The translations under genes were made by a program, and so were the position numbers. A model generated the notes under the pieces. That model ran no database searches. It saw nothing but the letters and a program-made list of their open reading frames with translations, and was not told where the DNA came from. Positions 2 through 31,731 of a stretch of DNA of 34,199 nucleotides are shown here, piece by piece; position 1 is the first letter of the stretch, and each line of letters begins with the position of its first letter. The stretch is from NCBI GenBank assembly GCA_903891395.1, contig CAITEM010000009.1, forward strand, positions 1-34,199, in the 5' to 3' direction. Source of the DNA: an uncultured Hyphomicrobiales bacterium (lineage in GTDB: Bacteria > Pseudomonadota > Alphaproteobacteria > Rhizobiales > Xanthobacteraceae).

Positions 2-130
2 CGCCCGGCCCGCACCGGCCGCAATCCGCGCACCGGCGCCCATGTGTCGGTCGACCAGAAGTCGGTGCCGTTCTTCAAGACCGGCAAGGAAATGCGCGAG
101 CGCCTGAACAAGGACGGTAGCGGCGCCTGA
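2..130 (+). CDS. ihfB: Integration host factor beta subunit, 3' end only (5'-truncated by the window edge)
   Basis: Manual frame-2 translation [42 protein letters not shown] has the IHF/HU arm motif GRNPRTG and the IhfB-type [14 protein letters not shown] tail; lies upstream of lapA as usual. Confidence 0.92.
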
Positions 131-135
131 TCGAG

Positions 136-281
136 GTGTCCCGGACGAGTGAGCGCGTAAGCGCGAACTATGATCCGGGACCCAGGAGAAATGGCGCGAA
201 GCGTCGATAGATTCTTCTTTTAGGCCCCTGGGTCCCGGTTCTGCAGCGCACCGTTTCACGCTGCGCTGCGCCCGCGACACG
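136..281. repeat. REP-like doublet (REPIN/BIME-like), left arm: unit A 136-186 plus inverted unit B 227-281
   Basis: GTGTCCCGGAC...GATCCGGGACCCAGG, spacer, then CCTGGGTCCCGG...GCAGCGCA-loop-TGCGCTGCGCCCGCGACACG. Each unit is an imperfect palindrome with an internal hairpin; the whole arm is an inverted copy of 604-755. Confidence 0.88.
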
Positions 282-300
282 CGGATGAAGACGAACGGCG

Positions 301-588
301 ATGCCGGACCTCTGTTTCGTCTATATCTTGGCGAGCAAGCGCAACGGAACGCTCTATGTCGGCGTTACCAGTGATCTTACGCGGCGGATTGAGGCGCATA
401 AGACTGGCTCGGTTCCGGGATTTACAAAGCAGTATGGCGTGCACATGTTGGTTCACGTCGAAGAGTTTTCCTCTATCGGCGATGCGCGTGCCCGTGAGCA
501 CACGCTGAAAAGATGGCGGCGGGCGTGGAAGCTCGAACTGATAGAAAAGGGCAATCCAACTTGGCGAGACCTATCGAACGATCTTTGA
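301..588 (+). CDS. Stand-alone GIY-YIG nuclease family protein (95 aa, UPF0213-like)
   Basis: FVYILASKRNGTLYVGVTSDLTRRIEAH...AREHTLKRWRRAWKLELIEKGNPTWRDL: VY/LYVG motifs, conserved Arg, His, metal-binding Glu and C-terminal NP all present. Confidence 0.92.
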   Translation: MPDLCFVYILASKRNGTLYVGVTSDLTRRIEAHKTGSVPGFTKQYGVHMLVHVEEFSSIGDARAREHTLKRWRRAWKLELIEKGNPTWRDLSNDL

Positions 589-603
589 CGAGGAAGATGG
601 TCT

Positions 604-755
604 CGTGTCCCGGGCGCAGCGCAATGCGAAGTATTGCGCTGCAGAACCGGGACCCAGGGGCTAGGAATAAGAAAGCTGTCGCTTCGCGCCGTTTATCCTG
701 GGTCCCGGATCGGCGTTCCGGCTCGCTTTGCGAGCCGTCACTTGTCCGGGACACG
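604..755. repeat. REP-like doublet, right arm: unit B 604-658 plus inverted unit A 697-755
   Basis: CGTGTCCCGGGCGCAGCGCAATGC-GAA-GTATTGCGCTGCAGAACCGGGACCCAGG, spacer, CCTGGGTCCCGGATC...CGGCTCGC-TTT-GCGAGCCG...GTCCGGGACACG; reverse complement aligns with 136-281. Confidence 0.88.
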
Positions 756-763
756 TGAAACCC

Positions 764-1150
764 ATGTTCCGCAAAATCCTCACCGCCATCATCGTCGTCC
801 CGCCGGCCGCGCTGCTGATCGCCTTCGCGGTCGCCAACCGGCACAGCGTCACGGTGTCGTTCGATCCGTTCTCGTCGGCGAGCCCAGCCTATGCCGCGAC
901 GCTGCCGCTGTTTGCGGTCGTCCTGCTGGTGCTGATTGTCGGCGTGGTGGTTGGCGGCATCGCCGCCTGGATACGCCAGGGCAAGTGGCGGCGCACCGCC
1001 CGCCATCTCGATGCCGAGGCGCGCAGCCTGCGGGCCGATCTCGACGACCTGCGCCGCCGCTTTGCCGTCAACGAGCCGGCCGCCGCGCCGCCGCAGACCA
1101 CGTTTTTCGACCCCACCGCGCGGGCCGCCATTCCGCCGCCGGCGCCCTGA
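764..1150 (+). CDS. lapA: Lipopolysaccharide assembly protein A (LapA/DUF1049) domain membrane protein
   Basis: MFRKILTAIIVVPPAALLIAFAVANRHSVTVSFDPF, second TM helix, then a basic coiled tail. ATG at 764 chosen over 728, which lies inside the repeat; usual neighbour of ihfB. Confidence 0.8.
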   Translation: MFRKILTAIIVVPPAALLIAFAVANRHSVTVSFDPFSSASPAYAATLPLFAVVLLVLIVGVVVGGIAAWIRQGKWRRTARHLDAEARSLRADLDDLRRRFAVNEPAAAPPQTTFFDPTARAAIPPPAP

Positions 1151-30957: not shown

Positions 30958-31731
30958 ATGGCTTACGAAAACATCATCGTCGAAACCAAGGGCCGCGTCG
31001 GCGTCGTAAGGCTCAACCGGCCGCAGGCGCTCAACGCGCTTAACCGCGCGCTGGTGACTGAACTTTTTCAGGCGATTGACGGCTTTGAGGCCGACGAAGG
31101 GATCGGCTGCATCCTGCTGACCGGTAGCGACAAGGCCTTCGCCGCGGGTGCCGATATCAAGGAGATGGCCGACAAGACCTTCATCGAGGCCTATCTCGGC
31201 AATTTTTGCGCCGATTGGGATCGCGCGGCGCGGGCGCGTAAGCCGATCGTGGCTGCTGTGGCGGGTTTCGCGCTCGGCGGCGGCTGCGAACTGGCGATGC
31301 AGTGCGATCTCATCATCGCCGCCGACACCGCCAAATTCGGCCAGCCGGAAATCAAACTCGGCGTCATCCCCGGCATTGGCGGCACGCAGCGGCTGACGCG
31401 CGCGGTCGGCAAGGCCAAGGCGATGGACATGATCCTCACCGGCCGCATGATGGATGCGGCCGAGGCCGAACGGTCGGGGCTTGTGGCCCGCGTCGTGCCG
31501 GCCGCGAGCTTGATGGATGAGGCGATGAAGGTCGCCGACACCATCGCCACTATGTCGCTGCCGTCGGCGCTGGCCGGCAAGGAGGCGGTCAACGCCGCTT
31601 TCGAAACCTCGTTGGCCGAAGGCGCGCGCTTCGAGCGGCGCATTTTCCATTCGCTGTTTGCGACCGACGATCAGAAAGAAGGCATGAAAGCCTTCGTCGA
31701 AAAGCGAAAGCCGGATTGGAAGAATAAATAA
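30958..31731 (+). CDS. Enoyl-CoA hydratase (crotonase)
   Basis: [56 protein letters not shown]. Confidence 0.96.

What the first reader, a model, noticed from the sequence alone, without database searches (positions are those of the whole stretch)
136..755. GIY-YIG nuclease gene flanked by inverted REP doublets: a RAYT/REPIN-like locus with a different enzyme
Seen: the layout is A> <B [GIY-YIG] B> <A, and the arms 136-281 and 604-755 are inverted copies. Exact shared blocks are 224-250/635-661 (27 nt), 172-187/696-711 (16 nt), 136-146/744-754 (11 nt) and 193-203/680-690 (11 nt). The ORF keeps the GIY-YIG catalytic residues, and the unit separates ihfB from lapA. Established: REP doublets flanking a single gene is the signature of RAYT (HUH/Y1 TnpA-REP) loci; to my recollection no dedicated mobilising enzyme is established for alphaproteobacterial REP families. 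Inference: this small nuclease may nick REP hairpins and mobilise or maintain them, making this the autonomous member of a REP family.
Basis: partly seen in the sequence, partly recalled or inferred. Interest (0 to 1): 0.85.

Follow-up and report, generated by a model that had tools for sequence, protein, structure and literature searches.

The report
Ssn nuclease with divergent long hairpins
A small DNA-cutting gene boxed in by four hairpin repeats is a variant of the Ssn nuclease family published in 2025; related genomes show each Ssn subfamily paired with its own repeat type, so these enzymes likely maintain, and may spread, repeats that had no known mobilising enzyme.

Summary
All four exact blocks are there, and the arms are 77% inverted copies around an intact 95-aa GIY-YIG gene between ihfB and lapA. 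The enzyme is not new. It is an Ssn nuclease (Chenal 2025, PMC11893778): 54% identical to the NTS-flanked Neisseria homologue, with the catalytic residues kept. That paper shows hairpin-specific ssDNA cutting and already draws the REP/IS200 analogy. This scan has filed such loci as Ssn before, on other DNA. Added here: (1) the four hairpins are a longer CGTG-tagged type that the published motif misses, and they go with their own protein clade; (2) protein relatedness predicted the flanking repeat type in 53 of 56 held-out loci; (3) genomes with this clade hold a median of 38 repeat motifs against 3-4 in the others, though this is not significant on independent pairs; (4) no RAYT-type enzyme was found in 9 of 10 genomes searched. 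Against 'autonomous element': no near-identical copies, no readable target duplication, and several repeat-rich genomes lack the cognate gene. Verdict: a variant of a known system. Mobilisation is plausible but unshown.

The parts
2..130 (+). 3' end of ihfB (left neighbour; its stop lies 5 nt before the cassette)
136..187 (+). Hairpin A, outer left, tag outward: GTGTCCCGG base stem, inner stem-loop, CCGGGAC-CCAG tail
188..227 (.). Spacer of the left doublet, partly an inverted copy of the right spacer (11-nt block 193-203/680-690)
228..281 (-). Hairpin B, inner left, tag facing the gene; one base-stem change; missing from four other filled ihfB-lapA alleles, which have one hairpin upstream
301..588 (+). 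ssn gene, 95 aa single-domain GIY-YIG nuclease; Y8, Y19, R29, H33, E66, N85; GC3 0.625 against 0.81-0.88 in neighbours
604..657 (+). Hairpin B, inner right; the type found gene-less elsewhere in the genome
658..697 (.). Spacer of the right doublet
698..755 (-). Hairpin A, outer right, tag outward; ends 9 nt before the lapA start
764..1150 (+). lapA-domain gene (right neighbour), followed by trpF-trpB-trpA

Best explanation
This is an Ssn-family GIY-YIG nuclease gene inside two doublets of a long-hairpin CGTC-like REP; by homology it is predicted to bind that hairpin in single-stranded DNA and cut a few bases 5' of its tag, and it likely maintains its own repeat family over long times rather than jumping like an insertion sequence. 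SHOWN here: family membership of the protein, the four hairpins, the one-subfamily/one-repeat-type pairing across the genus, gene-less doublets that are present, absent or replaced at orthologous sites, and the gene at several unrelated sites. SHOWN in print for relatives only: ssDNA-specific, orientation-dependent cleavage 5' of the hairpin, and restriction of transforming DNA (PMC11893778). INFERRED: cutting would occur on transiently single-stranded DNA (replication, repair, incoming DNA). With tags pointing outward, cuts near 132 and 600 on the + strand, or near 758 and 285 on the - strand, would free a piece holding the gene plus one doublet. The ends would then be handled by host recombination and repair, giving slow gain, loss and replacement of doublets without a target duplication.
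For: Membership: 50/92 identical (54%), E 1e-35, no gaps, to the N. gonorrhoeae homologue, which has 9 NTS copies within 1.5 kb and matches both of the paper's primer pieces. The six GIY-YIG residues sit in the same register. Flanks: inverted score >=40 in 62 of 80 GTDB loci and 51 of 68 loci from relatives, against 2 of 21 non-Ssn small GIY-YIG genes from the same genus; 45 of 67 scorable metagenome loci. Cognate pairing: label-free Mantel rho 0.49 on 1060 cross-genome, non-syntenic pairs, 0 of 500 permutations as high; the nearest protein shares the repeat label in 45 of 48 loci, paralogues in one genome in only 14 of 82 ordered pairs. Held-out test with patterns fixed beforehand: 53 of 56 correct; 16 of 17 long-clade proteins and 0 of 39 others have the long hairpin. 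Abundance: medians 38 (27 genomes with the clade), 4 (69 with other Ssn only), 3 (55 with none). No Y1/RAYT in 9 of 10 genomes; the three hits in the tenth have no such repeats nearby. 32 long-clade genes fall in 14 site groups, 6 of them short single loci that may be over-split. dN 0.14-0.24 against dS about 2 or saturated.
Against: No activity was measured for this protein. Its hairpins do not match the published SRM pattern. The abundance link is not significant on phylogenetically independent pairs: about 4 the same way and 0.4 the other, of 9; median p 0.125-0.375. Five repeat-rich genomes checked in full lack a long-clade gene, among them G161 (98% complete, 81 motifs) and G083 (99%, 55 motifs). 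Some genomes with the gene have few repeats (3-8). Filled/empty comparisons were too diverged to read junctions. Most genomes are incomplete MAGs, and the window contig is probably mis-binned.
Confidence: 0.65

Rival explanations
1. Host-domesticated ssDNA restriction (the Neisseria model): the nuclease cuts incoming or recombining ssDNA at the hairpins to limit gene exchange, and the repeats spread by something else (host recombination or another enzyme).
For: This is the only in vivo function shown for the family (PMC11893778, Fig. 4 text). The gene is under purifying selection. Repeat-rich genomes without the cognate gene exist. A preprint assigns the same Neisseria hairpin to a Group 2 RAYT (10.1101/2021.07.10.451892).
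Against: It does not explain why up to 5-8 subfamilies per genome each sit inside their own repeat type, are patchy and are often broken. No RAYT was found in 9 of 10 genomes here. Natural competence of this genus was not tested.
Confidence: 0.2
2. Autonomous mobile element: the hairpin-gene-hairpin unit transposes itself like an IS200-type element, and the gene-less doublets are its non-autonomous derivatives.
For: Each subfamily sits at 3-6 site groups within the genus. The filled ihfB-lapA allele is scattered on the host tree, 6 changes for 7 genomes. The gene has low GC3. An earlier scan note reports a unit inserted at a junction elsewhere (e1-3233498, not checked here).
Against: Only one other Ssn in G000, 56% identical and with a different repeat; none in G032. 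Filled alleles at this site differ at saturation in silent sites, and 9 of 103 gene-less alleles keep a matching right end by pattern (at least one is a false match), which fits old residence and loss. No match in 50,697 phage records; 22 of 72,556 plasmid records, mostly megaplasmids or chromosomes, all below 60%.
Confidence: 0.12
3. Coincidence: an ordinary small repair nuclease that landed in a repeat hotspot.
For: The ihfB-lapA gap collects several unrelated REP families in the genus.
Against: Non-Ssn small GIY-YIG genes are flanked in 2 of 21 cases, and the protein predicts the repeat type in 53 of 56.
Confidence: 0.03

Closest known systems
Ssn nucleases with NTS/SRM hairpins (SsnA of Neisseria meningitidis, CDD cd10448; Chenal et al. 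2025, PMC11893778)
   Same: Single-domain GIY-YIG of about 95 aa, 54% identical to the gonococcal homologue; same catalytic residues; gene flanked on both sides by oriented hairpins with a CG(T) tag and a CCAG tail.
   Different: Hairpins are about 50-57 nt with an inner stem-loop and a CGTG-TCCCGG start in place of CGTC-ATTCCC; they miss the published SRM pattern; they mark a separate protein clade. The layout here is two full doublets. None of the four enzymes tested in the paper is from this group.
REPtron / RAYT-REPIN system (TnpA-REP, HUH-Y1; Di Nocera 2013 PMC3733652; Bertels and Rainey, 10.1101/2021.07.10.451892)
   Same: One nuclease gene flanked by REP doublets; one enzyme lineage per repeat family; gene-less doublets across the genome; fewer repeats where the gene is missing.
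   Different: The enzyme is GIY-YIG, not HUH/tyrosine; tags are CGTC-like, not GTAG; subfamilies occupy several sites rather than one; no transposition chemistry is shown.
CGTC-tagged REP families of Alphaproteobacteria (Di Nocera 2013)
   Same: CGTC/TGTC-like tag, 8-9 bp base stem, CCA tail, mainly dimers; the paper notes longer loops in Bradyrhizobium CGTC-1.
   Different: That paper found no associated transposase; here the repeats flank a cognate Ssn gene. Whether this long type equals one of its four families was not determined (its Figure 2 is not readable).
UPF0213 / Slx1-like small GIY-YIG proteins (PDB 1zg2, 1ywl)
   Same: Same fold; best solved-structure hits.
   Different: Only about 30% identical, and not repeat-flanked (2 of 21).

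Membership tests
Ssn | Similarity to SsnA, E < 1e-10 over >75% of its length | tested here: met
   54% over 92 aa, pairwise E 1e-35, database E 1e-24, against the N. gonorrhoeae homologue; the N. meningitidis protein itself was not in hand, and the homologue was identified by 9 flanking NTS and primer matches
Ssn | Single GIY-YIG domain, under 150 aa | tested here: met
   95 aa, Pfam 5-78; model pLDDT 93, GIY-YIG fold hits
Ssn | Catalytic Y6, Y17, E64 equivalents | tested here: met
   Y8, Y19, E66, same spacing and same register as the homologue
Ssn | CDD cd10448 as top hit | not testable with these tools
   No CDD library on hand
Ssn | Flanking hairpins match the published SRM pattern (true of 71% of homologues on one side, 42% on both, so typical rather than required) | tested here: not met
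   No exact match in 1-900 on either strand; none with up to 3 substitutions in 121-300 on the + strand. Related hairpins with tag and CCAG tail are present
Ssn | Hairpin-specific cleavage of ssDNA only | not testable with these tools
   Needs purified protein
RAYT/REPtron | HUH motif and catalytic tyrosine (Y1_Tnp) | tested here: not met
   Only GIY-YIG (and a weak T5orf172) Pfam hit
RAYT/REPtron | GTAG-tagged REPs | tested here: not met
   Consensus 5' context of 78 hairpins is C-G-T-G-T before CCCGG
RAYT/REPtron | Gene flanked by inverted REP doublets of a family also found gene-less | tested here: met
RAYT/REPtron | Repeat number depends on the cognate enzyme | tested here: inconclusive
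   Medians 38 vs 4 vs 3; independent pairs not significant; counter-examples
Insertion sequence | Near-identical copies or target-site duplication | tested here: not met
   No second close copy in G000 or G032; no duplication readable at five sites or at ihfB-lapA, though sisters are diverged

The most novel reading that the evidence does not exclude
Ssn subfamilies are the missing replicases of the CGTC-type REPs: a RAYT-like system built on a hydrolytic GIY-YIG nuclease, in which at least seven enzyme-repeat pairs coexist in one genus, each enzyme spreading its own doublets by nicking ssDNA and using host repair. The long-hairpin clade here would be one such pair with a new specificity.
Probability: 0.35. 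Interest if true: 0.75.

Novelty: new variant of a known kind. Interest (0 to 1): 0.45.

Why it matters
How CGTC-type REPs arise and persist has been open since Di Nocera 2013 found no transposase for them. Chenal 2025 supplied a cognate nuclease but tested four close specificities and left mobility as a hypothesis. This genus offers a natural factorial test: several enzyme subfamilies, each with its own repeat, in the same genomes, mostly with no RAYT found. The long-hairpin clade is missed by the published search pattern and is a candidate for an ssDNA cutter with a different recognition site, which is useful as a tool.

Tried and rejected
Rfam on 1-1300: only a below-threshold hit, E 0.7; the hairpins are not a catalogued RNA family. 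Promoter/terminator scan: none. Sequencing runs: four DNA runs as contigs at 85% likeness gave mixed-organism cover; pieces of one or more runs match parts of the cassette with 0-1 differences, no listed piece spans it all, and the joints are short and likely from other organisms, so no within-population empty or inverted allele can be claimed. The careful tree did not finish; the quick tree of 156 rows x 91 columns separates 15 long-hairpin proteins from 139 other Ssn rows by SH-aLRT 97, but that side also held 3 of the 5 outgroup rows, which split, so the root is unknown. Repeat labels were written after seeing the flanks, hence the label-free Mantel and the held-out test. The metagenome scan returned nothing above 76% identity, so recent moves could not be tested, although 83-92% proteins exist without context. 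Target duplications: not readable. Literature: no paper held both 'GIY-YIG' and 'repetitive extragenic palindromic', or GIY-YIG, CGTC and REP as whole words; searches for Ssn follow-ups listed only Chenal 2025 as relevant. The library omits most subscription papers. A GTCAT match at 31363 lies in a coding region and is chance.

Full report
OBSERVATION. They resolve into four hairpin units, A> <B [gene] B> <A, each with a GTGTCCCGG-type base stem, an inner stem-loop and a CCGGGAC-CCAG tail. Each folds better than shuffles, z -3.4 to -4.6. The ORF at 301-588 is a 95-aa GIY-YIG domain (Pfam E 1.2e-15), between ihfB and a LapA-domain gene. Its GC3 is 0.625 against 0.81-0.88 for the neighbours. The predicted model is confident (pLDDT 93) and its best solved matches are small GIY-YIG proteins.

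WHAT THE PROTEIN IS. Chenal et al. 2025 (PMC11893778; I read parts 1-6 of 11 of the main text, supplementary file 12, part 1 of file 6, and search passages of files 1, 5 and 11; figures are not visible) describe Ssn, single-domain GIY-YIG proteins whose genes are flanked by hairpins (NTS/SRM). SsnA binds the hairpin only as ssDNA, cuts a few bases upstream, depends on orientation, and lowers transformation with NTS-bearing DNA. The discussion compares NTS-ssnA-NTS to IS200/REP systems. A N. gonorrhoeae record gave a homologue with 9 NTS copies within 1.5 kb and matches to two primer pieces of the paper. The window protein is 54% identical to it without gaps, and Y8, Y19, R29, H33, E66 and N85 are the same in both. 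So the protein is an Ssn. Earlier notes of this scan reached the same filing on other DNA; I had recalled the family and found the paper before that look-up.

WHAT DIFFERS. The window's hairpins do not match the published SRM pattern, exactly in 1-900 on both strands or with up to three substitutions in 121-300 on the + strand, whereas the other Ssn of this assembly (C548) has an exact SRM on each side. Over 78 hairpins of this type the 5' context is CGTGT-CCCGG, against CGTCAT-TCCC in the NTS. The paper found that bases just upstream of the stem govern cleavage, so a changed specificity is likely (inference). In a quick tree the 15 proteins with this long hairpin lie apart from 139 other Ssn rows (SH-aLRT 97; root unreliable).

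IS THE LINK FAMILY-WIDE? Inverted flanks scoring 40 or more were found in 86 of 110 loci (three of them copies of this locus) against 1 of 98 far-flank controls. With those two extra copies removed, the counts were 62 of 80 GTDB loci and 51 of 68 from relatives, against 2 of 21 non-Ssn small GIY-YIG genes. The family is multicopy, patchy and sometimes broken: 96 of 151 genus genomes have a member at E 1e-20, up to 8 per genome.

CO-VARIATION. Within the genus, seven protein groups each carry their own repeat type. Without labels, protein identity and repeat similarity correlate (rho 0.49, 1060 pairs from different genomes and different sites, 48 of 53 loci usable; 0 of 500 permutations as high). 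The nearest protein shares the repeat label in 45 of 48 loci; paralogues in one genome do so in 14 of 82 ordered pairs. On 56 new loci, with patterns fixed beforehand and five already-seen loci dropped, the nearest protein predicted the repeat type in 53; 16 of 17 long-clade proteins and 0 of 39 others had the long hairpin. Shared descent of gene and flank explains part of this, but the pairing persists across different sites.

EMPTY SITES. Of 112 ihfB-lapA rows, 110 had both genes. Seven carry the gene (window, its twin G032, G005, G162, G156, G077, G068) and 103 do not; one dropped row (G018) has a truncated copy there. The gap otherwise holds a gene-less doublet of this type (L139), right-end remnants, other REP families, or other families placed beside remnants. 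Filled alleles are scattered on a short host tree (6 changes) and differ at saturation in silent sites with dN 0.14-0.24. This fits old residence with many losses, or repeated gain. Five gene-less doublets of G000 were compared with sister species: each site was empty in at least one sister, four were filled by a different repeat in at least one, and two held the same type in one sister; no target duplication was readable.

DOES THE REPEAT NEED THE ENZYME? A 14-nt tail motif occurs 0-136 times per genome in 151 genomes, with reversed controls of 0-3. Medians are 38 with a long-clade gene (27 genomes), 4 with other Ssn only (69) and 3 with none (55). Mostly only each genome's best hit was classified, and kin are not independent. 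On independent pairs the trend is the same but not significant (about 4 against 0.4 of 9 pairs). Five repeat-rich genomes searched in full lack the clade, two of them 98-99% complete. RAYT-less E. coli likewise keep many REPINs (10.1101/2021.07.10.451892, passages only), so this weakens but does not refute dependence. The same preprint assigns the Neisseria hairpin to a RAYT. Here no Y1 transposase was found in 9 of 10 genomes, including three repeat-rich ones 95-99% complete, and the three hits in the tenth lack these repeats.

MECHANISM. Most likely the enzyme nicks its own hairpin on ssDNA just 5' of the tag (inferred from relatives). GIY-YIG enzymes hydrolyse DNA and form no covalent intermediate (recalled), so any spread of doublets would rely on host recombination and repair. 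That would fit slow turnover, replacement of one family by another at the same site, and no target duplication. An IS-like autonomous element is less likely: there is no close second copy, no phage record matches and plasmid matches are few and distant.

KNOWN VERSUS NEW. Di Nocera 2013 (PMC3733652; abstract, sections 6 and 16, passages) states that CGTC REPs lack a dedicated transposase and excluded ORFs under 120 aa from one analysis. Chenal 2025 gives the enzyme and the hypothesis. My searches listed no paper showing subfamily-level pairing or this long variant; bioRxiv supplements and most subscription papers were out of reach.

CAVEAT ON THE GENOME. G000 holds two ihfB-lapA-trpF-trpB blocks. 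The window's first 2.1 kb is 99.95% identical to G032, while other G000 contigs are 80-94% identical to it. The window contig probably belongs to G032's species; repeat counts are similar in both (17 and 19).

VERDICT. A real feature and a new variant of a known kind. Interest 0.45. If Ssn proves to be the replicase of CGTC REPs (probability 0.35) it would deserve 0.75.

Noticed in passing
G000 C9 (window) vs C170, C111; G032:C194: The assembly holds duplicate ihfB-lapA-trpF-trpB blocks (80-93% protein identity) and a third trpF-trpB piece; the window is 99.95% identical to another genome, so the bin is mixed.
   Followed up: partly
window 744-763 and L113, L126, L132, L133, L252, L253: The right end of hairpin A reads ...GGGACACGAGGT just before the lapA start in many alleles, so the repeat remnant may serve as the ribosome-binding site of lapA, which could explain why it persists after the gene is lost. 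In the window the sequence is GTGAAACCC instead.
   Followed up: no
ihfB-lapA gap, L114-L140 and L201-L280: A hotspot holding at least four different CGTC-type repeat families in different species; many short alleles keep a single decayed hairpin behind a TGCTAT box that looks like a lapA promoter.
   Followed up: partly
L363, L369, L377 (G078): Sites that hold long doublets in G000 hold other palindromic doublets in G078 (for example GGGTGGGTTA... and TTATCCCTCCCC... types) that are not among the seven Ssn-linked labels; their partner enzyme is unknown.
   Followed up: no
G000 C548:3182-3636: A second Ssn gene (56% identical) with one exact SRM hairpin on each side, in the minimal > gene < layout.
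   Followed up: yes
literature: PMC11893778 vs 10.1101/2021.07.10.451892: The same Neisseria hairpin (dRS3/NTS) is assigned to Ssn in one paper and to a Group 2 RAYT in the other.
   Followed up: partly
L074: A long inverted duplication centred near the gene (scores 438 and 461), probably an assembly artefact.
   Followed up: no
L194, L182: Two of the non-Ssn small GIY-YIG genes (a 'CADGSY' subgroup) have inverted flanks (scores 68 and 40); this may be a second repeat-linked subgroup or chance.
   Followed up: no
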